Below, piece by piece: positions 2,308 to 63,792 of a DNA stretch of 64,000 nucleotides. Below the pieces are notes generated by a model. The model saw only the letters and a list, made by a program, of their open reading frames with translations. It had not been told where the DNA came from and ran no database searches. The position numbers and the translations under genes were made by a program. Origin of the DNA: Escherichia phage vB_EcoM_LNA2. The stretch lies in the sequence record MZ311865.1. One strand, written 5' to 3'. Numbering within the stretch: position 1 is the stretch's first letter; the number at the start of each line of letters is the position of its first letter.

Positions 2308-2859
2308 ATGAAACTCTATCATTATTATTTTGACACTAAAGAATTTTACAAAGAAGAAAATTATAAACCATTAAAAGGCGTAGGATTTCCGGCTCATTCG
2401 ACACCAAAAAAACCTTTAGACCCTAAAGAAGGCTATGCTGTTATATTTGATGAACGCGAACAAGAATGGGTATATGTTGAAGACCATCGCGGAAAAACAG
2501 TATGGACTTATGATAAGCAAAAAATTGTTATTGACACCCCAGGTGCTCTTCAAAATGTTACTACAGAAGAACCTGGTGAATTTGACATTTGGACCGGTGA
2601 CGGGTGGAAGGAAGATGAAGCATATAAACGCGTAGTTCAACGTGATAAGAAAATTCATGAACTCTATAAATTATTCAGTGTTTTAAGTTCTCTTATTGAC
2701 GCAGAGGTTGCTAATAGAGAAGAAAAACGAAAATTTAAAGAGCTCAAAAAATTCTTTGCTCTTTTAGAAAAACATGAACATCTTGGCGGCGAATTCCCTA
2801 AATTCCCTGACCTTGAAAACAAATCTATTATCAAAGCGATTATAAATATCTTTAAGTAA
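2308..2859 (+). CDS. 38: Tail fibre assembly chaperone gp38 (T4 type)
   Basis: 183 aa, MKLYHYYFDTKEFYKEENYKP... very close to recalled T4 gp38; position after 37. Confidence 0.9.
   Translation: MKLYHYYFDTKEFYKEENYKPLKGVGFPAHSTPKKPLDPKEGYAVIFDEREQEWVYVEDHRGKTVWTYDKQKIVIDTPGALQNVTTEEPGEFDIWTGDGWKEDEAYKRVVQRDKKIHELYKLFSVLSSLIDAEVANREEKRKFKELKKFFALLEKHEHLGGEFPKFPDLENKSIIKAIINIFK
2841..2848 (+). promoter_or_regulatory. T4-type late promoter TATAAATA upstream of holin t
   Basis: Exact TATAAATA about 20 nt upstream of the t start, inside the 3' end of gene 38. Confidence 0.55.
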
Positions 2860-15200: not shown

Positions 15201-15218
15201 AAGCTCCCGAAGGAGCTT
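15201..15218 (-). terminator. Hairpin terminator immediately after gene 39
   Basis: AAGCUCC-UUCG-GGAGCUU overlapping stop codon; U-rich tail. Confidence 0.5.
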
Positions 15219-17034
15219 AGGACATCCATTCTTTACGAAGTTCTGAATCATCACCCATCAACATTTCAAAGAGTTCTTTCCAATTTTCAGGAAGTTTAAC
15301 TACGTCGTACACAGGGTTCTGAATCATTTCACGATATTCTGACTTTTCAAGGGAGCCTAATCCCTTGATGTATCGAATACTGTGCTTAGGCAGTGTATCT
15401 TTAACTTCTTCGTACTCAGCCACAGTATAAAACCATTTTTGAGTTTTGCCAATTTGTGCAATAATTACAGGCGTTTTAACAAAGCGAATACGTCCTTGTT
15501 CAAACAATTCAGGCCAATTACTAAAGAAAGCAAGCAAAGCCGGATAGATACTTCCAAGACCGTCATGATCGGCATCGGTCATAATTGCAATATTACGATA
15601 GTTCGTATTCTCTGCCTTTTCACCAAGAATAAGACCCGTGATAGCACAGATATCAAAGAGCTCTTTGTTCTTCATCATATCAGCATATGACATACCCCAG
15701 CTATTCATCACCTTACCACGTAATGGGAATCCACCGTGTAGTTCACGGTCACGAACATCAATGAGATAACCAATTGCCGAATCACCTTCTGTTAAGAACA
15801 ATGTCGTATCTGCATCTTTACCGCATTGGTTAGCTTTAATATGCTTATGAACCTTAGCTTTAGTTGCCTTTTTAGCTGCTTTAGTTTCTGCAGCCTTTTC
15901 TGCTGCCAATTTACGAGCTAATGCTGCTTCAACAATAGGCATAATCAAGGCTTCGTTTTTAAGAAGTGCCTGAGCAATTTTCTTAGCATCTAATTGGATA
16001 TGATTACGAATATCACCATACGTTGACGTTAAACGTTCTTTAGTCTGAGAATCAAAACGCATGTTGCTCATGTCTCTAATAAACATCAACATTGTGAGAC
16101 ATTCTTTAACACGAGCTTTAGTGACTTCAATACCCTTATATTTCTTTTTAATACCAGGCAAAAGATGTTCGCAGATATCATCCATTACACATTCAACATG
16201 ATGACCACCATTTTTAGTATGGATGTTATTCACGTAAGTTAAATGACGGAAGCCATCTGGTGATGTTGTGAATGCCATAGAGACTCTATCGTTTTCTTGA
16301 ATGATGTTATCTTCGCCAAATTGTTTAGCAAATCGTTTAAAATTACCATCAACCTTTTTACCATTAAATGTGAACTTGATATCAGGATAAACGACTGCCA
16401 ATGTTTGAAGTCGGTCTAAAGTAATATCTAAATAAATTTGAGATAAATTATGCTCTTCAAATGAAGAGAAATCAGGAGTGAAGATTACTTTAGTGCCTTT
16501 ACCTTTAGATTTCTTAGAAGACCATGATTTGTTTTCCATTCCGTTTGAACAGTTAACAGTGATTTCATTTTCGCCATCTGACGTGATGCCTGTAAACAAC
16601 GTAGAGAAGATATTAGTTAAACTACTCCCGACGCCGTTCATACCACCAGTCTTGCGTTCAGAGTCATCACCAAAGTTACCACCAGCCTTTGGAATAGTCC
16701 AGGCTGCTACAGGCCCAGGAATTTGTTCACCTGTTTGGTCGGTAACTAAACCTTGAGGAATACCACGTCCGTTATCTTCCACTGAGACTTGATTATTTTT
16801 AATTTGCACATCGATTTTATTTGCAAACTTAAATGATGTACGAATAGCTTCATCAACCGAGTTGTCAATAATCTCATCGATTAATTTAACCAGACCAGGA
16901 ACATATTCAACTTGTTGATATTTGCCAAACAAAAAACGCTCATGTGCTTCTTTAGCAGAAGAACCAATATACATACCACTACGTTTCTTAATATGTTCTA
17001 CATCTGACAATACCTTAATTTCATTTTTAATCAT
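15217..17034 (-). CDS. 39: DNA topoisomerase II large (ATPase) subunit, contiguous 39+60 equivalent
   Basis: 605 aa; GHKL ATPase motifs (IIDNSVDEA, GLHG-type region); no split or bypass. Confidence 0.9.
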   Translation of the reverse strand: MIKNEIKVLSDVEHIKKRSGMYIGSSAKEAHERFLFGKYQQVEYVPGLVKLIDEIIDNSVDEAIRTSFKFANKIDVQIKNNQVSVEDNGRGIPQGLVTDQTGEQIPGPVAAWTIPKAGGNFGDDSERKTGGMNGVGSSLTNIFSTLFTGITSDGENEITVNCSNGMENKSWSSKKSKGKGTKVIFTPDFSSFEEHNLSQIYLDITLDRLQTLAVVYPDIKFTFNGKKVDGNFKRFAKQFGEDNIIQENDRVSMAFTTSPDGFRHLTYVNNIHTKNGGHHVECVMDDICEHLLPGIKKKYKGIEVTKARVKECLTMLMFIRDMSNMRFDSQTKERLTSTYGDIRNHIQLDAKKIAQALLKNEALIMPIVEAALARKLAAEKAAETKAAKKATKAKVHKHIKANQCGKDADTTLFLTEGDSAIGYLIDVRDRELHGGFPLRGKVMNSWGMSYADMMKNKELFDICAITGLILGEKAENTNYRNIAIMTDADHDGLGSIYPALLAFFSNWPELFEQGRIRFVKTPVIIAQIGKTQKWFYTVAEYEEVKDTLPKHSIRYIKGLGSLEKSEYREMIQNPVYDVVKLPENWKELFEMLMGDDSELRKEWMS

Positions 17035-17085
17035 GTTGTCTCCTCGTTATGAAGGTATTCTATCATCCGAAATCTAAAGCAAAAA

Positions 17086-17097: not shown

Positions 17098-17541
17098 TTA
17101 TTTAAATTTAATTTTCTGAAGTGCATCAATTGCAGCTAAACGCCCTTGTTCACTTTTAACTGTAATGACCACATCGCCTGATACGATCACCGAACCATCA
17201 ACAAATTCTATAGAGCCTTTTTTGAAATCGACAGCTGTATCTGGTTCCGGAACTTCTTCAAAGAATTTAAATTCTGCACCATAAATCAGAATATCACCTT
17301 GCATACTAATGATTGTACGTCTAGGTCCATCGGTTTCAGCGGCAATCATTGAAACACCATAACCAATCATCTCTTCTACAATAAAATCTCTTGATAATAA
17401 AACTGTATGCAGAGTAGTGTTAAGACGTTTACCAGTTGTATTAAGAATTCTCAAGAAATTATCTTCTTGACCTTTGATAATACGATATTTCTTACCAACT
17501 TCAAAACCTTTAAAACCTTTAAAAGCCGTATTAAAAGCCAT
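17098..17541 (-). CDS. Hypothetical protein, 147 aa
   Basis: ORF track; followed by UUCG terminator. Confidence 0.5.
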   Translation of the reverse strand: MAFNTAFKGFKGFEVGKKYRIIKGQEDNFLRILNTTGKRLNTTLHTVLLSRDFIVEEMIGYGVSMIAAETDGPRRTIISMQGDILIYGAEFKFFEEVPEPDTAVDFKKGSIEFVDGSVIVSGDVVITVKSEQGRLAAIDALQKIKFK

Positions 17542-17543
17542 AA

Positions 17544-17723
17544 TTAACCCTTCTTAAGTAAGTCGTAAAAACCACCGTTCACATGTTTAGGAGCAGAAAC
17601 CCGACGAGTAGACAGACGATGACATTCAGGGCAAACATCGTTTTCTCGTTCAGAAATCCTTTTAATTTTTTCATATTCATGACCACAATCTTCAGATTGA
17701 CATTTATAGTCGTATAACGGCAT
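17544..17723 (-). CDS. FmdB-like zinc-ribbon protein, 59 aa (not in ORF track)
   Basis: Hand translation [59 protein letters not shown]; C-x4-C ... C-x2-C. Confidence 0.5.
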   Translation of the reverse strand: MPLYDYKCQSEDCGHEYEKIKRISERENDVCPECHRLSTRRVSAPKHVNGGFYDLLKKG

Positions 17724-18136
17724 TATTGTTCCTTAAAGTGAGCTTTCAACATTTGATACAAAGACCATGCCTGGTCGTTATTTTCGATAGTAATCGTCAT
17801 CACCGGAAATTCAGACAATTCATCAAGTTCACCAGAATCTTGCTCTTCAGACTCTTGATACGGATTTCCAACTTCGTCAAAGAACTCTGCTTCATTCGTG
17901 GAGAGCCAGATAAAGTTTTCATCAAGGATGTCACCGCCTGTTGCGTATCCAACCATGCCAGTAGATGTCACAATTTTAGTAGGACGACCAAGATGGTCAA
18001 CATCTAATATTTTAAATGGTTCCATGCCAAGACGTCGTGCGTAAATCCCATTATCAGTGTGGTCTTTAATAAACTCTTCTTGGGCACGTTTATCTTTAAA
18101 TTGGTACCATGAGTTAACGCGGAATTTATTAGCCAT
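17723..18136 (-). CDS. Hypothetical acidic protein, ~137 aa
   Basis: ORF track 17723..18154 (TTG); ATG at 18136 with AAGGAA SD. Confidence 0.5.
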
Positions 18137-18363
18137 TAGTAAGTTTCCTTCCAATAAGTTGTACCATTTTCAGTGATTTCACGGAAGATACCATAGATAG
18201 GCATTTCGTCACCGAGTTTTTCGTAAACGTAAACCACTTCAGTGTAGCATAAAAATTCAGTCCAGTTTTTCTGTACAACAACTAAATCAGGATTAAACAG
18301 AACATCTTCAAACTCATCGATGTTTGAATCAGTAGTTACGTTTTTAATGATTTGACGTTTCAT
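18136..18363 (-). CDS. Hypothetical protein, ~75 aa
   Basis: ORF track 18136..18408; ATG 18363 with GAGGAG SD; the 18408 ATG lies inside the promoter. Confidence 0.45.
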
Positions 18364-18391
18364 AATATTCTCCTCTTGTTTTGATAGGTCT

Positions 18392-18421
18392 ATAGTATCA
18401 TAGACCATAGTTGTTGTACAT
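18392..18421 (-). promoter_or_regulatory. Early-like promoter (ATGTAC-18-TACTAT)
   Basis: Upstream of ORF 18136..18363; -10 within GGTCTAT/ATAGACC palindrome. Confidence 0.45.
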
Positions 18422-18945
18422 CATTTTAGCAAAATAAAATCAACTTGTTCTGCCAATGAACGTCTGAACATTAATTGACAACTTCCGAGGATGAAATCAG
18501 GTGCTTCATAGACCGCGATGTAGTATCCTTTAGCTTTCAAGAGTTCAACATCCACCTGGTCATCAAACCATGCATAAACCGCGTCAACACTTTCAAATCC
18601 AAAATAGAACTCTTGAGCCCAATCTTCGCTCAATTCAAATGTGTGCTCAATTCTATAGTATCTTAAGATATTTTGTTCAAGGAGTTTGTCTTCATTTACT
18701 GTAGGACGATTAGGGACATTATAGTTGTCGCCATGATGGTAGAAGTTACCTGAGAGTATTCCATGCTTATCAAGGAACTCCCATGTTTCTTCAGAGTTGT
18801 CGGTGCCCGACCAACCGTATGGCGAACGAGGTTCTTTATTCCAAGAGGTTTCCCAAATTCTGACGGCTTTACCGTCTTCAATAGCAATTCCTGGTAATGA
18901 TTCACGTTGAGTACAAAAACTACGTTCTACGCGGTAAACTAACAT
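18421..18945 (-). CDS. Hypothetical protein, 174 aa
   Basis: ORF track; GAGGAG SD inside a 12-bp inverted repeat. Confidence 0.5.
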   Translation of the reverse strand: MLVYRVERSFCTQRESLPGIAIEDGKAVRIWETSWNKEPRSPYGWSGTDNSEETWEFLDKHGILSGNFYHHGDNYNVPNRPTVNEDKLLEQNILRYYRIEHTFELSEDWAQEFYFGFESVDAVYAWFDDQVDVELLKAKGYYIAVYEAPDFILGSCQLMFRRSLAEQVDFILLK

Positions 18946-19004: not shown

Positions 19005-19424
19005 TTATGCAAAAGATGCTGGACAATATTTTTTGATTTGGAACTCAGGAACTACCATGAACTGTCCAGCAAAAACAATGTTATAAAGCTTGACTCCATC
19101 TTCAACCCATTGGTCACTGATGAACCCAGCGACTTGATTCGTTGTCCACGGTGTTCCATCTGTCGCAGAGGCAATGGTGAACTTGTGGTCTTTTACAACT
19201 AAAACCGATCTGCACAGTTTCCATTTGAACGCTTTTTCTTCCGGTTCAATGAATTGGCTTTTAACGTAACCAATGTTACCATCGGCGTCACGAACTTTAA
19301 CTTCGTTACGTCCAAAAACAGGATCACTCACATAAAGAACTTCAACCAACTTCCCGGCAACTTTAGAGCGAGAAGCATCCGATACGTGTACATAATCACC
19401 AATAGAGAGATTTGCAATATTCAT
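19005..19424 (-). CDS. Paralog A of a three-gene family (KOW-like N-term + conserved C-terminal domain)
   Basis: 139 aa; shares IGDYVHVSDASRSKVAGKLVEV and GFISDQWVEDGVKLYNIVF.G.F.VVPE with the next ORF. Confidence 0.55.
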   Translation of the reverse strand: MNIANLSIGDYVHVSDASRSKVAGKLVEVLYVSDPVFGRNEVKVRDADGNIGYVKSQFIEPEEKAFKWKLCRSVLVVKDHKFTIASATDGTPWTTNQVAGFISDQWVEDGVKLYNIVFAGQFMVVPEFQIKKYCPASFA

Positions 19425-19433
19425 AATAATTCC

Positions 19434-19931
19434 TTAAGCTTTACGAGGAGACACATAGCGAGTGATTTCAGATTCTTCAACAACTCGGAAGTCACCTAAG
19501 AATACAATATTGTATAGCTTTTTACCATCTTCAACCCATTGGTCGCTGATGAAGCCGCACATAGTATCAGTTTTGCTTGGATAACCGTATTCGTCGATGT
19601 AATCAAATTCTTTATCGGTTATAAATTCAACGCCTTTGCAAAGGGCCCATTTGAACTGTGTAGTAGGCTCAACGATATCGCTTGAAGCAAAGTGTGCAGG
19701 TGCAACTTCTTCGCTTGAAGCAAATTGGACTCGTATATGTTTTTCCAGGAATTTAGGACTTACGTAAGCATACTGGGCATCTTGTCCGCCAAAACTGGGG
19801 ATGATTCGAACTTTAACTTCTTTAACACGTCCCATGCCGTTAGTACGAAGCCCTGCTACTTCAACCAGACGACCTGCAGCTTTAGAACGAGAAGCAGGAG
19901 ATACACGAAGGATTTCACCAATAGTAATCAT
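19434..19931 (-). CDS. Paralog B of the same family
   Basis: ORF track 19434..19994; ATG 19931 (MITIGEILRVSPASRSKAAGRLVEV...) with SD; own promoter. Confidence 0.55.
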   Translation of the reverse strand: MITIGEILRVSPASRSKAAGRLVEVAGLRTNGMGRVKEVKVRIIPSFGGQDAQYAYVSPKFLEKHIRVQFASSEEVAPAHFASSDIVEPTTQFKWALCKGVEFITDKEFDYIDEYGYPSKTDTMCGFISDQWVEDGKKLYNIVFLGDFRVVEESEITRYVSPRKA

Positions 19932-19961
19932 ATTTTTTCTCTCTTTGTTTAAGTTGAATTC

Positions 19962-19991
19962 ATTATACTCCATCCATCCTTGGATGTAAAA
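19962..19991 (-). promoter_or_regulatory. Early promoter cassette (TTTTAC-18-TATAAT)
   Basis: TATACTCCA.CCATCCTTGG.TGTAAA family; upstream of paralog B. Confidence 0.5.
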
Positions 19992-19993
19992 CA

Positions 19994-20488
19994 TTAATTA
20001 AGAATATTAACTACTGCACTACGTGGAACAACACTAAAATCACCAGCATGAACAACGTTAATAAGTTCAACACCATCTTCAATCCACTGGTCAGTTACCC
20101 ATCCACTCACTGGACCTGCGAACGGACGTCGAATTGAAACGGCTTTACACAACAAATCAGTAGGCTCAATAGGCTTAATCAGAGTACCGTACATACAAGC
20201 GATGTCCATATCAAAGTGGAGACCATCTTTAACAGGTGCTTCTTCAATCAAGAGTTCAAAGTCGGTGCTCGGAAGGGCAGTAGTAGAAATTGTACCGTAT
20301 GAATTTTTAATTTCTAAGAATAACCAAGGGCCTTCAACTTGTTTGATGAAGTTAACAATAGTGAAACTATTACCTTGAGTGGCACCTAAAATTTCACAAA
20401 ACTTTTCATAAGCTCGCACTGAAGCACCGTACCAATTGATTTGTTTTTCGTCTTTCAGGATGTAAGTAGCCGTAGTATTGATATTCAT
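19994..20488 (-). CDS. Paralog C (shares C-terminal domain only)
   Basis: 164 aa; C-terminal GWVTDQWIEDGVELINVVHAGDFSVVP; own promoter. Confidence 0.55.
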   Translation of the reverse strand: MNINTTATYILKDEKQINWYGASVRAYEKFCEILGATQGNSFTIVNFIKQVEGPWLFLEIKNSYGTISTTALPSTDFELLIEEAPVKDGLHFDMDIACMYGTLIKPIEPTDLLCKAVSIRRPFAGPVSGWVTDQWIEDGVELINVVHAGDFSVVPRSAVVNILN

Positions 20489-20519: not shown

Positions 20520-20549
20520 ATTATACTCCAACCATCCTTGGTTGTAAAC
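20520..20549 (-). promoter_or_regulatory. Early promoter cassette (GTTTAC-18-TATAAT)
   Basis: Same family; upstream of paralog C. Confidence 0.6.
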
Positions 20550-20554
20550 TGCTT

Positions 20555-21232
20555 TTATCGCTGTTTTACACTTAACGGGTCAGGATTCTCAGGGACATCT
20601 TCAAGGCCAAGCGCATAACGCTGAGCATATTTTAACATCAAAATATCTTTAGCACAATCATGAATACTATCATGGGCAACGAATCCTTTTAGCGTACCCA
20701 TCGGTAATGGACACATACTTAATCCTCGTGTCAACGAGTAAGCTTCGATTGCTGTACGAATATCACGTTGAGCCCAGAATTTAACCGGTTCTAATTTATC
20801 AGTATCAATATCTGGTTCAAGAACACCTTCATCACGATAGAGGTCACGAATCAAATCGACCAAGATTGGGAAGTCAAAGCTCATACCACGGCACCACATC
20901 TGTGATTTCCATTGGTCAACTTTATTAGCTCGACAATAATCTAAAAAGATTTTAATGCCTTCAAGCGTAGTGACATCGTCTTCAGACGGAGCCAAGTTTT
21001 TACGCGCTTCAGCAGATTGTTCTTTCCACCATTTCATAGTGGATTTAGCGAAAACTCGCTTCCCTTTCTGAGAAGCTAAATTAAATTTAATTCGCTTACC
21101 TCGTTGAACAAGGTCTTCAAATGATTCAACAACTTCTGGGTCGGAATTATATGCAATAACCGCAAGGTCAATAACAGCCGCTTTTGATGTATTGCCGAAT
21201 GTTTCAAAATCTATAATAACATCAGTGCTCAT
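20555..21232 (-). CDS. dexA: Exonuclease A (DnaQ-like 3'-5' exonuclease)
   Basis: 225 aa; IDFETFG exo motif; T4 synteny next to dda. Confidence 0.85.
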   Translation of the reverse strand: MSTDVIIDFETFGNTSKAAVIDLAVIAYNSDPEVVESFEDLVQRGKRIKFNLASQKGKRVFAKSTMKWWKEQSAEARKNLAPSEDDVTTLEGIKIFLDYCRANKVDQWKSQMWCRGMSFDFPILVDLIRDLYRDEGVLEPDIDTDKLEPVKFWAQRDIRTAIEAYSLTRGLSMCPLPMGTLKGFVAHDSIHDCAKDILMLKYAQRYALGLEDVPENPDPLSVKQR

Positions 21233-21241
21233 AATTTTCTC

Positions 21242-22555
21242 TCAAATAAAATGGACGTCAAACCGGCCACGAGTTGTGCCGACATACAATAACTGTTTAG
21301 CTAATTCTGAATCGGCATAATGGATACACGGTGTATAAACAAAGGCCGTGTCAACAGACATACCCTGAGCCTTATGGAAGGTTGATACTGGTAGTGCCTT
21401 CACCTTAGTGAACATACGTTTAGCATCCCAGAATTCGCTCCATGGAGCTTTACCACCTTTATTCCAGAATTTGTATGTTTCTGCTGTCTTAGCCAAAAAC
21501 AAATTGAATTTATAAAGCTCTTCTTCAGAAGAAATAACCTTTATATCTTCACGGATGTATTCTTCATCATCCCCATATGTTTCTACTGTAAGATTCCAGT
21601 ATCGTATCATATATTCGCCTGAAACACCACGTGCTTTAACGAATGTAGACGTTTCTACAGCATCTCGAATACGAACGAATTGCCCATTATTGAAAAGCAT
21701 TTCGGTCATATTTTTACCGTCTAGCTTATATGTCTTAGTAAATGGCTCTTGTAGAACAATGACTTCGTCTTTAATAAATGGTTTTTCTGTTTCAAGAAGT
21801 TTTCGGCGAATAATTGAATTTAACTTGTCCACCGACTTATTTGTGAATGCCATCATTCGATTTTCGAAAAGGTCTTCAGGAGTTTTAACGACGTTAAAAT
21901 AGTTCATCATATACGATTTAAGGTCTGTATATCCATGAACACCGTGTCCATCAACTACTTTATCGTAAATCCATTTGCCATTACGAATATCAGTCGCAAC
22001 ATCAATAATTGGTGCATTACTACGTTTAACTTCTGTAAGGTTGCATTGCACGAAGTCTTTGTGAGTGAAGAAAGGACTTAGATACGCAGTTGATTCGCCT
22101 GGGTCTACCGGTCGAATTTGACATCGGTCGCCGATTCCAATTACTGTGCACCATTTAGGGATACTAGCTAACATTATTTTAAACAGAGAACGGTCGCACA
22201 TTGACGCTTCATCAAATAACAGTACACGACACAAGGCTAAGTCGGGAACCTTTTTCTGTTCAAACAATACGTTTTCTTCGTATGTAGTTGGGTTGATTTT
22301 AAGAATGCTATGAATAGTCGATGCTTCTTGACCTGCAAGTTTGCTTAGAACCTTTTTAGCAGCATGTGTAGGGGCTGCTAAAATAATACCTGATTCTCCA
22401 GAAGAAATAAGGGCTTCAACGATGAATCTAGTAAGGGTTGTTTTACCTGTACCAGCAGGTCCATTAATAGTTACATGATGTTTCTTTTCTTTAATAGCTT
22501 CCATAACAACGTTGAAGGCGTTTTTCTGGCCTTCAGTCAAATCATCAAATGTCAT
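21242..22555 (-). CDS. dda: Dda DNA helicase (SF1)
   Basis: 437 aa; MTFDDLTEGQKNAF...GPAGTGKTT Walker A; close to recalled T4 Dda. Confidence 0.9.
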   Translation of the reverse strand: MTFDDLTEGQKNAFNVVMEAIKEKKHHVTINGPAGTGKTTLTRFIVEALISSGESGIILAAPTHAAKKVLSKLAGQEASTIHSILKINPTTYEENVLFEQKKVPDLALCRVLLFDEASMCDRSLFKIMLASIPKWCTVIGIGDRCQIRPVDPGESTAYLSPFFTHKDFVQCNLTEVKRSNAPIIDVATDIRNGKWIYDKVVDGHGVHGYTDLKSYMMNYFNVVKTPEDLFENRMMAFTNKSVDKLNSIIRRKLLETEKPFIKDEVIVLQEPFTKTYKLDGKNMTEMLFNNGQFVRIRDAVETSTFVKARGVSGEYMIRYWNLTVETYGDDEEYIREDIKVISSEEELYKFNLFLAKTAETYKFWNKGGKAPWSEFWDAKRMFTKVKALPVSTFHKAQGMSVDTAFVYTPCIHYADSELAKQLLYVGTTRGRFDVHFI

Positions 22556-60464: not shown

Positions 60465-60769
60465 TATAATGTTCTCTCAAATTTGTGGAAGCATTTACGG
60501 CATTTCAATTTCAAGTTATCAGTGGTCCAGTTAACCAGTTGGACTTGGATAGTTCCACATTCCGGACATGGATGTTTTGCTGCCGATTTGGCAGCATTTT
60601 CACGTCGTTCAACCATTTTCATTATTTCGTTCCATGCCGGAGGAACAAACTCTTCTTCACCGTGGATTTTATCTCGCTGAACAAATTCAATCTTTGAACT
60701 ATCGTCAATAAACTTAACCAAGCCATGATTAGTGCTCATACCAATATCCTCTAAAAGACGTAGTTTCAT
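60464..60769 (-). CDS. Zinc-ribbon protein, 101 aa
   Basis: ORF track; CPECG ... CRKC. Confidence 0.5.
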   Translation of the reverse strand: MKLRLLEDIGMSTNHGLVKFIDDSSKIEFVQRDKIHGEEEFVPPAWNEIMKMVERRENAAKSAAKHPCPECGTIQVQLVNWTTDNLKLKCRKCFHKFERTL

Positions 60770-61719
60770 TATAACACCTCAATGGCATTTCGTAAACCAT
60801 CCGCTTTCGCATTCAGAGCTTTTAACGATTTAGTTTGTTCTGCAATCTGGGCTTCGACTTCTTTCAGACGAGATTTGAGATATTCGCGTTCTTCTCTTAA
60901 GTTATCAACTTTTTCTGCTTTAGGCTCTTTAATAGGCTTAGGCTTATACTCGTTAGGGTTCTTCAACTTAATTTGAATGCGAGAACTGTATAACATTGAA
61001 CCATTATCTTCGGTTTCATCATACATTTCTACCACGTCCATGATTCTTAACATCATGCGAAGTTTATAAGACAGCGAACGAATGGTTTTATTGTGCTTCT
61101 TAATTTCTTCAGCTTTCATGGTGCCGAGATTACGTGAGTAATAATAAGGAACCTGAATATCAATTGATAATGATGCGGTACCATTACCGGTTGGTTTGAA
61201 CACTGCAGTAACCCAATCTTTAGCATGAACTGTATTTGTACGATCATCGCCGCCTGTGAATAATTTACGAGAATGTTTAAAAAGCATATTCACTTGGTTA
61301 TTGAATTCACAAGCAAATTTATCAACAAATTTAGTTTCAGGAATGGTAGATAACCAATCAGCCAAATGAGTCTTTTTAACATCGTTAATAATAGTAAATT
61401 CAACCAAATCGGTTTTAGATGTCACAGATTTAATAAAGCTCGGCTTCATAAAGTTTTTAATGTTATCGCGAGCTACAGTAGAAGATAATAAACGAGAACG
61501 TTTGAACCATTGAAGCAGTGTCCCTAATGAATGAGAATACGCATTCTGAGTATCTTTACAGATATGATTTTCTTGGCCTGTGTATGTACCAAAATCGCGA
61601 AGAATACCACTTACTACAACTCGGTGTGGAACATCAAATCCTAATGAACCAGAAGCACGTTGGGCATGAACGTTAGCGATAAGACCTGCAAAGTATTCAA
61701 TGTAATGTGAACGTGTCAT
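60769..61719 (-). CDS. Hypothetical protein with C-terminal coiled coil, 316 aa
   Basis: ORF track; heptad-like C-terminus; own promoter cassette. Confidence 0.5.
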   Translation of the reverse strand: MTRSHYIEYFAGLIANVHAQRASGSLGFDVPHRVVVSGILRDFGTYTGQENHICKDTQNAYSHSLGTLLQWFKRSRLLSSTVARDNIKNFMKPSFIKSVTSKTDLVEFTIINDVKKTHLADWLSTIPETKFVDKFACEFNNQVNMLFKHSRKLFTGGDDRTNTVHAKDWVTAVFKPTGNGTASLSIDIQVPYYYSRNLGTMKAEEIKKHNKTIRSLSYKLRMMLRIMDVVEMYDETEDNGSMLYSSRIQIKLKNPNEYKPKPIKEPKAEKVDNLREEREYLKSRLKEVEAQIAEQTKSLKALNAKADGLRNAIEVL

Positions 61720-61747: not shown

Positions 61748-61777
61748 ATTATACTCCAACCATCCTTGGTTGTAAAC
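61748..61777 (-). promoter_or_regulatory. Early promoter cassette (GTTTAC-18-TATAAT)
   Basis: Same family as 20520-20549; upstream of ORF 60769..61719. Confidence 0.6.
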
Positions 61778-61781
61778 TGAT

Positions 61782-62741
61782 TTATGATTTTAATGCATTC
61801 ATTGCGTTAAAAAGTTTAGAGTACTGTAACTGGAGATTCGTTACAACACTTTGAGCATCACGAAGCTTAGCTTGTGCTTTGTCAAGTTCAACAGACAGTT
61901 GGTCCATAGTGGCCTTGATTTGATTGTAATGGTAATCTTCGGCCGGAAGAAGGTCATTAGAAACATTTAGTTTTACTGCAGACAGTTTGCACACATTTGG
62001 CAAACCTTTAAACATTGATTTACCCGAAGTAGAATAAGCACTTAGGACTTCGGCCTGTTCAATTGGGGTCCCAGTAAGCGATGCTTCAAACAATGCATTT
62101 TCCTTTTTAAGATTTTGATAGTATTCAGAGTCTTTGTGCCACCATGGCGCAGGAACCTTTTTACCAATAGATACACGAGCCTGGATAGCGATATTGCCCT
62201 TATTCTTGATAGGGTCAATAATATTAAGCTCACGAGAATAAATCGCTTTAATCTGGTGGATATTATCGCCTAAAACTTCCAGTGCTTGGTGGAATACACG
62301 AGCAACGTTATCATTCTTAGGATTATATGTAAGAGTGAACTCGTTCTCACTGATAACCATGATTTCTAACTTATCGTAAGTATATTTCAAATGTTTCATG
62401 TTAATTGCTTGAGGACGAATACGAGAAGCAATGGCCATCAGATTGTTAAGGTTATTTCGGAACTGTTTAGCGAAATATTGTCCTTCACCGCCGATACAAA
62501 AATTACGAAGTTTCTGTTTGGCTAATAAACGGCTGAACTCACCATTTTTAATGAACTCTTTAACGGGTGTGTTAGTAATGCATTCAAATTGAGTAAACAT
62601 ACGAGAATTAATCCCATAATATGAACAGATTTCCTCAATCTCTTCAGGAGTCTTTACAGGCATACGGATAGGATTAGGTCCTGGGGTATATGCGTTCGAG
62701 GTAAATTCTTTGATAAGTTCTCTACGTGTAATAAAAGCCAT
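61782..62741 (-). CDS. Hypothetical protein with C-terminal coiled coil, 319 aa
   Basis: ORF track; own promoter cassette. Confidence 0.5.
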   Translation of the reverse strand: MAFITRRELIKEFTSNAYTPGPNPIRMPVKTPEEIEEICSYYGINSRMFTQFECITNTPVKEFIKNGEFSRLLAKQKLRNFCIGGEGQYFAKQFRNNLNNLMAIASRIRPQAINMKHLKYTYDKLEIMVISENEFTLTYNPKNDNVARVFHQALEVLGDNIHQIKAIYSRELNIIDPIKNKGNIAIQARVSIGKKVPAPWWHKDSEYYQNLKKENALFEASLTGTPIEQAEVLSAYSTSGKSMFKGLPNVCKLSAVKLNVSNDLLPAEDYHYNQIKATMDQLSVELDKAQAKLRDAQSVVTNLQLQYSKLFNAMNALKS

Positions 62742-62767: not shown

Positions 62768-62797
62768 ATTATACTCCAACCATCCCTGGTTGTACAT
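62768..62797 (-). promoter_or_regulatory. Early promoter cassette (ATGTAC-18-TATAAT)
   Basis: Same family; upstream of ORF 61782..62741. Confidence 0.5.
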
Positions 62798-63792
62798 CAT
62801 TCCTTAAGAAGTTTTACTACTTGAATAAGATTAGCTCGTTCCGTTTTATTTTTACCATTTAAGCCTGCTAATCGTGAGATTTCATCGTCAGTCTGTTGAA
62901 TAGTTACATTAAGTTCGTTAATCAAAGCTTCAAAGTATTTGATTTGCTCAGCATGTTTTGATTCAAATTTCTGAACCGGAATAACGTCTTGATTCAGTTC
63001 ATCAATAAGGTCTTTAAGAGCATCTTCTTGGTTGATATCATATTCAACTTCTTTTATTTCTTCAACGAGCTCGTCTTTATATCTAACGTCTTTTAGTCCT
63101 GGTGCTGGTCCTGAAATCTCTTCTTTAAGAGTACAAACATATCCAATACGGTATCCAATGCTGTCTCGCTTGATATCAACTTCGTCAATAAATCCACAAT
63201 GTTTAAGACCAGAGCCGATTAGGTCAAAATATCCTTGACGTCGTCCTTCAAACGTTACACGAACTACTAAGACAGTTTTACCTGCGACCTTTTGAAGCTC
63301 ACATTTATAAAAGTCTGTTGAACCTGAATAACGTGGATGAGTTTTAAAGTTCATCTGACGATCTAGGCCCATTTGTAAGCGTGCTGATACGGCCATAAAA
63401 CGTGTTTGATTCTCGTTAAGATGAGCAACAATCCATTTCAAAGGCATTTTACACTGTTCACGGCCGAACAAATCAGTACGTCCTAGATTACGCAGGATGT
63501 TGTTAGAGTTAATCATCGACAGAACGTTAAGTTTATTCAGCGCGCTGAAGATTCCATCGGCCATTGATTTTCCGTAACCTTTACACGCTTTAATAAGCGC
63601 TCGTGGTAGGTTAGTATAGATTTCAGACGGCATATGAAAATCAAATTTACTAGTCAGTAATTGATGAACTTGGATAGCAATTTGCTCATAATTAAGTGCT
63701 CTGCGATCATTATGGTCTTTAAACCACACTTTAATCTGTGAAGCACATAAACCGTTAATTTCATGTTTTACCGCATCAGATGTAATGCTCAT
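62797..63792 (-). CDS. Hypothetical protein with C-terminal coiled coil, 331 aa
   Basis: ORF track; degenerate copy of the promoter cassette upstream. Confidence 0.5.
   Translation of the reverse strand: MSITSDAVKHEINGLCASQIKVWFKDHNDRRALNYEQIAIQVHQLLTSKFDFHMPSEIYTNLPRALIKACKGYGKSMADGIFSALNKLNVLSMINSNNILRNLGRTDLFGREQCKMPLKWIVAHLNENQTRFMAVSARLQMGLDRQMNFKTHPRYSGSTDFYKCELQKVAGKTVLVVRVTFEGRRQGYFDLIGSGLKHCGFIDEVDIKRDSIGYRIGYVCTLKEEISGPAPGLKDVRYKDELVEEIKEVEYDINQEDALKDLIDELNQDVIPVQKFESKHAEQIKYFEALINELNVTIQQTDDEISRLAGLNGKNKTERANLIQVVKLLKE

What the first reader, a model, noticed from the sequence alone, without database searches (positions are those of the whole stretch)
19005..20488. Tandem three-gene paralog family between gene 39 and dexA
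Paralogs A and B share an N-terminal KOW/Tudor-like motif (IGDYVHVSDASRSKVAGKLVEV) and all three share a C-terminal signature (G[FW][IV][ST]DQW[VI]EDG...[IV]V..G.F.VVP). B and C each have their own early promoter cassette. The locus corresponds to the T4 motB/cef interval, so these may be diversifying host-takeover or nucleic-acid-binding factors.
Basis: seen in the sequence. Interest (0 to 1): 0.5.

Follow-up and report, generated by a model that had tools for sequence, protein, structure and literature searches.

The report
MotB-family early gene trio
The three neighbouring genes are the motB.1, motB and second-motB genes of an RB69-like T-even phage, a family of early DNA-coating host-takeover proteins that is already described, so the finding is correct but ordinary.

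Summary
Three minus-strand genes lie directly downstream of dexA: C (19994-20488, 164 aa), B (19434-19931, 165 aa; the 186-aa ORF ending at 19994 runs through B's own promoter) and A (19005-19424, 139 aa). A and B are full-length paralogs (42% identity, E=4e-31). C shares only the C-terminal domain (BLASTP E about 1e-10; profile-profile 98.7%, E=4.5e-16). All three pass Pfam PF17613 (motB). B is the MotB ortholog, A is the second MotB copy known as RB69 ORF010c, and C is a full-length MotB.1.

Patterson-West et al. 2021 already describe this arrangement (two motB plus one motB.1 in RB69, shared C-terminal domain, KOW-like N-terminal domain). About 207 of 773 MotB-carrying phage records hold an A ortholog.

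The likely function is nucleoid coating and H-NS remodelling, inferred from T4 MotB.

Verdict: already known, low interest.

The parts
20520..20548 (-). Early (sigma-70 type) promoter of gene C: TTTACA, 17 nt, TATAAT
   Evidence: 11/12 consensus match. An identical 29-nt cassette lies at 61748-61776, and there are 4 cassette copies in the window against 0 expected.
19994..20488 (-). Gene C, 164 aa: full-length MotB.1-type protein. N-terminal alpha/beta barrel (about residues 1-85), disordered linker (87-106), MotB-type C-terminal barrel (about 109-164).
   Evidence: Pfam motB 36.8 bits over residues 88-159. phrog_2333 E=5e-81. 46% identity over 99% of the query to the 143-aa T4-like MotB.1 P0110, and 75% to RB68 'motB.1' P0103. 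AF2 pLDDT 78.6. dN/dS 0.096.
20168..20209 (-). Conserved short motif FDMDIACMYGTLIKP inside the disordered linker of C
   Evidence: pLDDT below 50 over residues 87-106. The same motif recurs in other MotB.1-type proteins with different N-terminal domains and in distant relatives. Its function is unknown.
19962..19990 (-). Early promoter of genes B and A, starting 4 nt after C's stop codon
   Evidence: 11/12 consensus match. The cassette differs from the C promoter at 2 positions.
19434..19931 (-). Gene B, 165 aa: MotB ortholog. Basic KOW-like N-terminal barrel (residues 1-63, net +6), disordered acidic linker (66-89), C-terminal barrel (93-165, net -4).
19680..19712 (-). In-frame 33-nt (11-aa, EEVAPAHFASS) extra segment in B's linker
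   Evidence: Among 9 compared loci it is present only in the window and in phage NHEP11; the others lack 11-14 residues here. Homolog lengths of 151/154/158/165 aa reflect this variable linker.
19431..19435 (-). Shine-Dalgarno-like AAGGA for gene A, overlapping B's TAA stop; 9 nt separate B's stop from A's ATG
   Evidence: Read from the sequence. The 9-nt B-A junction is the same in all 8 related loci with an A ortholog, from both Mosigvirus and Tequatrovirus.
19005..19424 (-). Gene A, 139 aa: second MotB copy (RB69 ORF010c type). Acidic KOW-like N-terminal barrel (net -2), almost no linker, mildly basic C-terminal barrel (net +2).
   Evidence: Pfam motB 82.2 bits. phrog_1671 E=5e-52. 42% identity to B. 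Orthologs at 80% identity or more in 207 phage records. Always 139 codons. dN/dS 0.125. Annotated 'similar to RB69ORF010c; similar to motB'.

Best explanation
Identity. The three genes are the MotB-family cluster of a Mosigvirus (RB69/HX01-like T-even phage): C is motB.1, B is motB, and A is a second motB copy.

Protein architecture. Each protein is built from small SH3-type beta-barrels. A and B have an N-terminal KOW-like barrel. C has a different barrel, the GoF/MotB.1 'LSm-like' type. All three end in the same 55-70-residue barrel, whose beta2-turn-beta3 hairpin carries the signature G-[FWY]-[IV]-[ST]-D-Q-W-[IV]-E-D-G.

Expression. The genes are transcribed right after infection by host sigma-70 RNA polymerase from two near-identical early promoters, one before C and one before B. 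A has no promoter of its own. It is read from the B transcript through its own Shine-Dalgarno site 9 nt after B's stop.

Function (inferred from T4 MotB). B most likely coats DNA without sequence preference through its basic N-terminal barrel. In doing so it would compact the nucleoid and alter or displace H-NS/StpA, which modestly raises burst size. A and C carry the same C-terminal barrel on an acidic or different N-terminal module. They most likely act in the same pathway, with the shared C-terminal barrel acting as a common partner-binding or self-association module and the N-terminal module setting what is bound.

What is shown and what is inferred. Shown here: homology, domain folds (predicted), promoters (consensus matches), purifying selection, and distribution. 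Inferred: DNA binding, the H-NS interplay, and any division of labour between A, B and C.
For: - Family membership: Pfam PF17613 above cut-off for all three, and PHROG 'MotB-like transcriptional regulator' or its MotB.1 sister family.
- Public annotation: GenBank records 93-99% identical across the locus annotate the same genes as MotB-like.
- Synteny: T4 has dexA...motB.2/motB.1/motB...cef.
- Literature: PMC7827196 states that RB69 has two motB copies plus one motB.1, and that MotB and MotB.1 share the C-terminal domain and differ in the N-terminal domain.
- Experiments on T4 MotB: toxic when expressed, binds modified and unmodified DNA non-specifically, copurifies with H-NS/StpA, doubles burst size (PMC6070864), and overrides the H-NS footprint.
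- Promoters.
- Coding status: dN/dS 0.10-0.23, with intact ORFs in 9 of 9 loci for A and B. C is intact in the 6 loci with a full-length C-type ortholog, absent in AV116 and replaced by other MotB.1 types in ime09 and RB7.
- No MotA-box middle promoter lies on the coding strand inside the cluster.
Against: - Nothing in the window shows that A, B or C bind DNA.
- B (pI 6.2), A (pI 6.7) and C (pI 4.65) are much less basic than T4 MotB (pI 9.2), so non-specific DNA coating may not transfer to all of them.
- B is only 45% identical to T4 MotB.
- T4 motB.1 deletion has no phenotype and MotB.1 had little effect in an RNA reporter assay (PMC12152347).
- The promoters are consensus matches, not mapped transcription starts.
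Confidence: 0.85

Rival explanations
1. The tandem motB pair (B and A) is a sub-functionalised two-component system. After duplication, B kept the basic DNA-binding N-terminal barrel and A kept the basic T4-like C-terminal barrel. The two proteins would work only together (for example as a hetero-oligomer), moving between phages as one cassette.
For: - Charge partition: T4 MotB has NTD +5 and CTD +2, B has NTD +6 and CTD -4, and A has NTD -2 and CTD +2.
- The B-A junction of 9 nt is invariant in all 8 related loci with an A ortholog, across two genera.
- Tequatroviruses ime09 and RB7 carry a Mosigvirus-type B (72-76% identity) and A (90%) although their dexA is only 67% identical and their motB.2 33-35%.
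Against: - Single-gene chimeras exist: B-type or T4-type NTD fused to an A-type CTD, on 1 and 5 contigs. Most MotB-carrying phages (566 of 773 records) have one motB only, so the pair is not obligatory.
- Identity patterns differ between A and B against the same phage (NHEP11: B 98%, A 82%; ATK47: B 86%, A 89%), so the two genes recombine independently.
- No interaction was tested.
Confidence: 0.2
2. The proteins are counter-defence or arms-race factors. Their real target would be a variable host protein or a nucleoid-based defence, rather than DNA in general. That would explain the hypervariability and horizontal exchange.
For: - Synonymous and non-synonymous divergence of A and B (dS 0.45 and 0.38) is about 5 times that of dexA and motB.2 (0.08 and 0.09) in the same genomes.
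- N-terminal modules are shuffled onto the conserved C-terminal barrel in many combinations.
- The region is dispensable in T4 (PMC7827196).
- C contains a conserved disordered peptide motif, typical of a docking site.
Against: - dN/dS is well below 1 for all three.
- There are no hits to PADLOC defence models (that library does not cover anti-defence genes).
- The loci compared were chosen by spread of A identity, which inflates A's divergence relative to a random sample.
- No host target is known apart from the H-NS/StpA copurification.
Confidence: 0.15
3. They are transcription or RNA-directed factors, as the old name 'modifier of transcription' and the KOW/LSm-like folds suggest. They would act on RNA polymerase or on mRNA rather than on the nucleoid.
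Against: - A T4 motB knock-down leaves early and middle transcripts unchanged (PMC6070864 abstract).
- MotB.1 had only a small effect in the RNA reporter assay.
- There is no Pfam KOW hit at E up to 1.
Confidence: 0.1
4. A is a decaying duplicate (pseudogene) and the shared motifs are leftover similarity without function.
For: A lacks the linker and its own promoter, and it is 26 residues shorter than B.
Against: - A is exactly 139 codons in all 9 loci, with dN/dS 0.125 at dS up to 0.86.
- Orthologs occur in 207 phage records in two genera.
- A has a good Shine-Dalgarno site and conserved spacing.
Confidence: 0.03

Closest known systems
Bacteriophage T4 MotB (Pfam PF17613; NP_049626)
   Same: B aligns over the full 162-residue profile and A over both domains. 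They share the KOW-like N-terminal motif (V-S-x2-S-R-S-K-x-A-G) and the C-terminal DQWVEDG..LYN[IV]VF signature. The chromosomal neighbourhood is the same, between dexA and cef. They are early genes.
   Different: B is only 45% and A 39% identical to T4 MotB. T4 MotB is basic (pI 9.2) while B and A are near neutral. T4 has one copy and the window has two in tandem. Linker length and sequence differ, and B carries an extra 11-residue segment. The position relative to motB.2 is permuted.
RB69 motB / ORF010c / motB.1 (ORF012c) cluster, as described by Patterson-West et al. 2021 (PMC7827196)
   Same: This is the same arrangement: two motB copies plus one motB.1 sharing the C-terminal domain. GenBank notes in ime09 and ATK47 name the A ortholog 'RB69ORF010c'. 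RB69 MotB (P0024) is 79% identical to B.
   Different: There are only allelic differences. B's linker is 165 aa here against 151 aa in RB69. The RB69 '29-aa peptide' of that paper has no counterpart here: only three [ST]DQW-containing frames exist in the window.
T4 MotB.1 and the GoF/MotB.1/Frd.2 'LSm-like' family (Kim et al. 2025, PMC12152347)
   Same: C is 46% identical over 99% of its length to the 143-aa T4-like MotB.1 P0110. Its N-terminal domain model has a five-strand barrel with inserted helix, as described for MotB.1.
   Different: C is full length. The T4 reference MotB.1 (119 aa) is cut inside the C-terminal barrel by a frameshift. C has a 22-residue insertion carrying the DMDIACMYGTL motif that the 143-aa forms lack. 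BLASTP between C and the two goF-like proteins of the window is not significant, so relatedness of their N-terminal domains was not shown here.
Tandem Tudor / tandem KOW proteins (53BP1, UHRF1 TTD, Spt5 KOW6-7, NusG CTD)
   Same: The predicted fold matches: two SH3-type five-strand barrels in tandem, each with a 3-10 turn between strands 4 and 5.
   Different: There is no detectable sequence homology (about 12-16% identity, no Pfam hit). Foldseek E-values are weak (1e-3 or higher). The barrels are joined by a long disordered linker instead of being packed. No aromatic cage or RNA-polymerase-binding surface was shown.

Membership tests
MotB family (Pfam PF17613) | Whole-protein score above the curated gathering cut-off (25 bits) | tested here: met
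   A 82.2 bits, B 127 bits, C 36.8 bits.
MotB family (Pfam PF17613) | Full two-domain architecture: KOW-like N-terminal domain plus conserved C-terminal domain | tested here: met
   B matches profile positions 2-157 of 162. A matches both domains (2 stretches; phrog_1671 positions 2-166). C matches only profile positions 82-153, so it is a C-terminal-domain-only member of MotB.1 type.
MotB family (Pfam PF17613) | Location in the dexA-cef early region of a T-even phage genome, transcribed from an early promoter | tested here: met
   Synteny with T4, HX01, ATK47, RB7 and others. There are 11/12 sigma-70 promoter matches before C and B. Transcription itself was not measured.
MotB family (Pfam PF17613) | Non-specific DNA binding, toxicity in E. 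coli, copurification with H-NS/StpA | not testable with these tools
   Known only for T4 MotB (PMC6070864, PMC7827196). The near-neutral or acidic pI of A, B and C makes direct transfer uncertain.
MotB.1 subfamily (phrog_2333; categories 2-4 of PMC7827196) | Non-KOW N-terminal domain plus C-terminal domain of the PTDLLCKAV...GWVTDQWIEDGVELLNVVHAG type | tested here: met
   C: phrog_2333 E=5e-81. It aligns end to end with MotB.1 proteins of RB68 and T4-like phages.
KOW domain (Pfam PF00467) | Significant match to the KOW sequence profile | tested here: not met
Tudor / 'royal family' SH3-type barrels | Five-strand barrel fold similar to solved Tudor domains | tested here: met
Tudor / 'royal family' SH3-type barrels | Aromatic cage that reads methylated lysine or arginine | not tested
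Conserved aromatics exist (F93, W95, W132, Y140, F144 in B) but their geometry was not examined.
OB-fold, cold-shock DNA-binding type (assignment of the MotB C-terminal domain in PMC7827196) | OB topology, and OB-fold proteins among the closest structural neighbours | tested here: not met
LSm-like fold family GoF/MotB.1/Frd.2 (PMC12152347) | N-terminal bent five-strand antiparallel sheet related to GoF and Frd.2 | tested here: inconclusive

The most novel reading that the evidence does not exclude
The shared C-terminal barrel may be a common docking or oligomerisation module for one host nucleoid target such as H-NS/StpA, rather than a DNA-binding domain. It would be carried on interchangeable N-terminal 'reader' barrels (KOW-type for DNA, LSm-type for RNA or another ligand). 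In phages with the tandem pair, the ancestral MotB function would be split between a basic-NTD protein (B) and a basic-CTD protein (A) that act together. The cluster would then be a modular, recombining toolkit for remodelling bacterial chromatin, a viral analogue of tandem-Tudor chromatin readers.
Probability: 0.15. Interest if true: 0.55.

Novelty: already known. Interest (0 to 1): 0.2.

Why it matters
MotB is one of the few phage proteins shown to bind DNA non-specifically and to override H-NS. Knowing that many T-even phages carry two or three family members matters for interpreting knock-outs, because redundancy may hide phenotypes. Three small points from this work could help that field:
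1. The predicted C-terminal domain looks like an SH3/Tudor-type barrel rather than the OB fold proposed from HHpred.
2. The motB-motB' pair moves as a cassette between Mosigvirus and some Tequatrovirus phages and can collapse into single chimeric genes.
3. The T4 reference motB.1 is frameshift-truncated inside the conserved barrel. This may explain why T4 motB.1 mutants and the 119-aa protein show no activity.

None of this changes the basic classification.

Tried and rejected
- PDB sequence search with B: no hit at E up to 1, so no solved structure of the family is held.
- NCBIfam and PADLOC scans of A, B, C and D: no hits.
- Rfam scan of the whole window: nothing, so there is no known RNA element in or near the cluster.
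- Tandem Repeats Finder: did not detect the 33-nt linker duplication in B. It is visible only by comparison with orthologs.
- MotA-box search: no middle promoter on the coding strand inside the cluster.
- BLASTP of C against the two goF-like proteins of the window: not significant, so the proposed relation between their N-terminal domains could not be confirmed by sequence.
- The NAR 2021 MotB paper (Son et al., PMC8450097) is not held. It is known only from its title, cited in PMC13096335, and one sentence there.
- The 186-aa reading of B was considered and rejected (see the observation check).
- L002 (the T4 locus) was not exported to the scripting machine on its own. It later appeared in a multi-record file and was used.
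- Profile search of 1.84 billion representative proteins: only 32 clusters at E up to 1e-3, all consistent with T-even-type MotB or MotB.1 proteins. No link to a cellular family was found.

Full report
**What is there.**
The window is from a Mosigvirus, an RB69/HX01-like T-even phage. The 2.2 kb around the finding is 93-99% identical to many GenBank phage records, and phage HX01 shows the same gene order. On the minus strand the order is:
- dda (21242-22555)
- dexA (20555-21232)
- C (19994-20488, 164 aa)
- B (19434-19931, 165 aa)
- A (19005-19424, 139 aa)
- a 174-aa MotB.2 ortholog (18421-18945; phrog_1106; 33% identical to T4 MotB.2)
- cef (18136-18408)
- a goF-like gene (17723-18154)
- a 39.2-like zinc ribbon (17544-17723)
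- a second goF-like gene (17098-17541)
- gene 39 (15217-17034; assigned by size and synteny only, not searched against any family)

These assignments rest.

**Checking the observation.**
C matches A and B only in the last 30-36 residues by BLASTP (E=2e-11 and 4e-10). A profile-profile comparison of the C family with the MotB family extends this to 53 columns covering the whole C-terminal domain (probability 98.7%, E=4.5e-16). A six-frame scan finds the [ST]DQW core only in these three genes.

The two promoter cassettes are 11/12 matches to TTGACA-17-TATAAT. They share the spacer CCAAGGATGG(T/A)TGGAG. The same 29-nt cassette occurs four times in the window against none expected, so it is this phage's standard early promoter rather than a mark of the duplication.

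One correction concerns B's start. The 186-aa ORF that begins at 19994 is translated through B's own -35 and -10 elements. Four observations place the start at 19931:
- the family profiles begin at its residue 22;
- the T4 MotB N-terminus aligns there;
- the -35/-10 hexamers lie inside the extension;
- the extension is closed by a stop close to the start in 3 of the 8 related loci with a B ortholog.

**Identity.**
All three proteins pass the curated Pfam cut-off for PF17613 'motB' (A 82.2, B 127, C 36.8 bits against a cut-off of 25).
- B covers the whole profile and is the MotB ortholog (79% identical to RB69 MotB, 45% to T4 MotB).
- A covers both domains but lacks the linker. GenBank notes call its orthologs 'RB69ORF010c, similar to motB'.
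- C belongs to phrog_2333 (E=5e-81). It aligns end to end with MotB.1 proteins (75% identity to RB68 'motB.1', 46% to T4-like 143-aa forms).

Patterson-West et al. 2021 (PMC7827196) already report three things. MotB and MotB.1 share a C-terminal domain and differ in the N-terminal domain. The genes probably arose by duplication. RB69 has two motB copies plus one motB.1. The finding is therefore a correct rediscovery.

Gene order differs from T4. T4 has dexA-motB.2-motB.1-motB-cef, whereas motB.2 lies downstream of the trio here.

**Structure.**
AlphaFold2 models of B and C have mean pLDDT 78.4 and 78.6, with confident domains and disordered linkers (B residues 66-89, C residues 87-106). Each domain of B, and the C-terminal domain of C, is a five-strand unit with a short 3-10 turn between strands 4 and 5, which is the SH3-type pattern.

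Foldseek aligns the full length of B to tandem Tudor (53BP1, UHRF1, SGF29) and tandem KOW proteins. The E-values are weak (1.3e-3 or higher) and the rmsd is high, because the two barrels are oriented differently.

No OB-fold protein appears in any of these lists. The published HHpred assignment of the C-terminal domain to a cold-shock OB fold is therefore not reproduced. They do not hold at Pfam sequence level, since there is no KOW hit at E up to 1. Two caveats apply: the models are predictions, and no per-domain alignments were available.

**Expression and coding status.**
C and B each have an early promoter. A starts 9 nt after B's stop, with an AAGGA overlapping that stop codon. No MotA-box middle promoter lies on the coding strand within the cluster.

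I compared eight related loci, six Mosigvirus and two Tequatrovirus. A is always 139 codons, and the 9-nt B-A junction is invariant. Nei-Gojobori estimates (ratio of mean dN to mean dS) are:

| Gene | dN/dS | Mean dS |
|---|---|---|
| A | 0.125 | 0.45 |
| B | 0.227 | 0.38 |
| C | 0.096 | 0.21 |
| motB.2 | 0.042 | 0.09 |
| dexA | 0.040 | 0.08 |

**Evolutionary behaviour.**
In the same genomes, A and B are about five-fold more diverged than their flanks, as the dS values above show. The loci were picked across the range of A identity, which exaggerates the figure for A.

Divergence is patchy. There are identity troughs of 68-77% at 19701-19800 (end of B's N-terminal domain and linker, in four of six comparisons) and 75-77% at 19101-19200 (A's C-terminal domain, in all six).

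A and B recombine independently. NHEP11 has B 98% and A 82% identical to the window, while ATK47 has B 86% and A 89%.

The Tequatroviruses ime09 and RB7 carry a Mosigvirus-type B (72-76% protein identity) and A (90%), although their dexA is 67% and their motB.2 33-35% identical. The B-A cassette is therefore exchanged between genera.

About 207 of 773 phage records with a MotB match have an A ortholog at 80% identity or more and two MotB places. The rest have one motB.

Single-gene chimeras also exist. They fuse a B-type or T4-type N-terminal domain to an A-type C-terminal domain, and are found on one and five metagenomic contigs in a one-motB locus. Phage AV116 lacks C altogether.

The family is small. 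A profile search of 1.84 billion representative proteins finds only 32 clusters at E up to 1e-3. Distant members combine a KOW-type N-terminal domain with a MotB.1-type C-terminal domain.

**Mechanism.**
What is shown for the family comes from T4 MotB:
- it is toxic when expressed;
- it binds glucosylated and unmodified DNA without sequence preference;
- it copurifies with H-NS and StpA;
- it doubles burst size (PMC6070864);
- it dominates the H-NS footprint and derepresses part of the H-NS regulon (PMC7827196);
- it has been proposed to compact the nucleoid (Son et al. 2021, as cited in PMC13096335).

The best-supported reading is that B does the same early in infection. This is inference. 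B's N-terminal barrel is as basic as T4's (+6), but its C-terminal barrel is acidic (-4). A shows the reverse pattern (-2 and +2), and C is acidic throughout (pI 4.65). The conserved signature DQW[IV]EDG is itself acidic and lies in the beta2-turn-beta3 hairpin. I therefore think the shared barrel is more likely a partner-binding or self-association module than the DNA-binding surface. That was not tested.

**Verdict.**
The feature is a known, annotated and published gene family arrangement. The residual value lies in the minor points above and in the items noticed in passing.

Noticed in passing
L002 (T4 NC_000866.4) 2700-2830, minus strand: The T4 reference motB.1 (119 aa) ends at ...GWVTDQWI-GRWR*. 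The missing end of the conserved barrel (EDGVELLNVVHAGEYSVVPRSAVVAILN*) is encoded intact in the next reading frame. Otherwise identical 143-aa proteins exist on 256 contigs (P0110). T4's motB.1 therefore looks frameshift-truncated, or mis-sequenced. This may explain the lack of phenotype or activity reported for it.
   Followed up: partly
window 61748-61776 and 62768-62796 (minus); genes 60769-61719, 61782-62741, 62797-63792: The same 29-nt early promoter cassette as before C and B (one copy identical, one with 2 mismatches) precedes two genes of a row of three similarly sized (316-331 aa) adjacent genes. The middle one is Pfam DUF7235 (E=5e-122). This may be another tandem early-gene array; homology between the three was not tested.
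   Followed up: partly
window 20168-20209 (minus), residues 94-107 of C: A conserved peptide, FDMDIACMYGTLIKP, sits in a predicted disordered linker. Variants (D[MF]D[IV]A[SC]MYGTL, DVxxMY) recur at the N-termini or linkers of MotB.1-type proteins with unrelated N-terminal domains, and in distant KOW-plus-MotB.1-CTD relatives. It looks like a docking motif for an unknown partner.
   Followed up: partly
L010 1373-1894; L011 3001-3492; L012; L013: Some metagenomic T-even loci have a single motB that is a chimera: a B-type or T4-type N-terminal domain joined to an A-type C-terminal domain. This is as expected from recombination between the tandem copies or between alleles.
   Followed up: partly
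L007 (phage AV116) 1961-2027: This Mosigvirus has dexA followed directly by motB and the second motB. The motB.1-type gene C is absent, so C is dispensable in nature.
   Followed up: no
window 19680-19712 (minus): B carries an in-frame 11-residue segment (EEVAPAHFASS) in its disordered linker. It looks like a local duplication (FASS...FASS) and is shared only with phage NHEP11 among the loci compared. Linker length is the main length variable in MotB orthologs (151-165 aa).
   Followed up: partly
window 19992-19996 (minus): C's stop and the upstream in-frame ATG of the long B ORF overlap as TAATG. On read-through transcripts from C's promoter, an N-terminally extended 186-aa MotB could in principle be made. 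Many database entries annotate that long form (for example P0001, 68 member sequences).
   Followed up: partly
window 17098-17541 and 17723-18154 (minus): Two proteins flanking the 39.2-like zinc-ribbon gene both hit phrog_622 and goF PHROGs, so they form a second pair of distant paralogs in the same early region. The first also gives a weak hit to the N-terminal part of the MotB.1 PHROG (E=0.0015).
   Followed up: partly
window 17057-17081 (minus): A MotA-box-like middle promoter match (TGCTTTA, 12 nt, TAGAAT) lies just upstream of gene 39. The window has 15 such matches against 6 expected.
   Followed up: no
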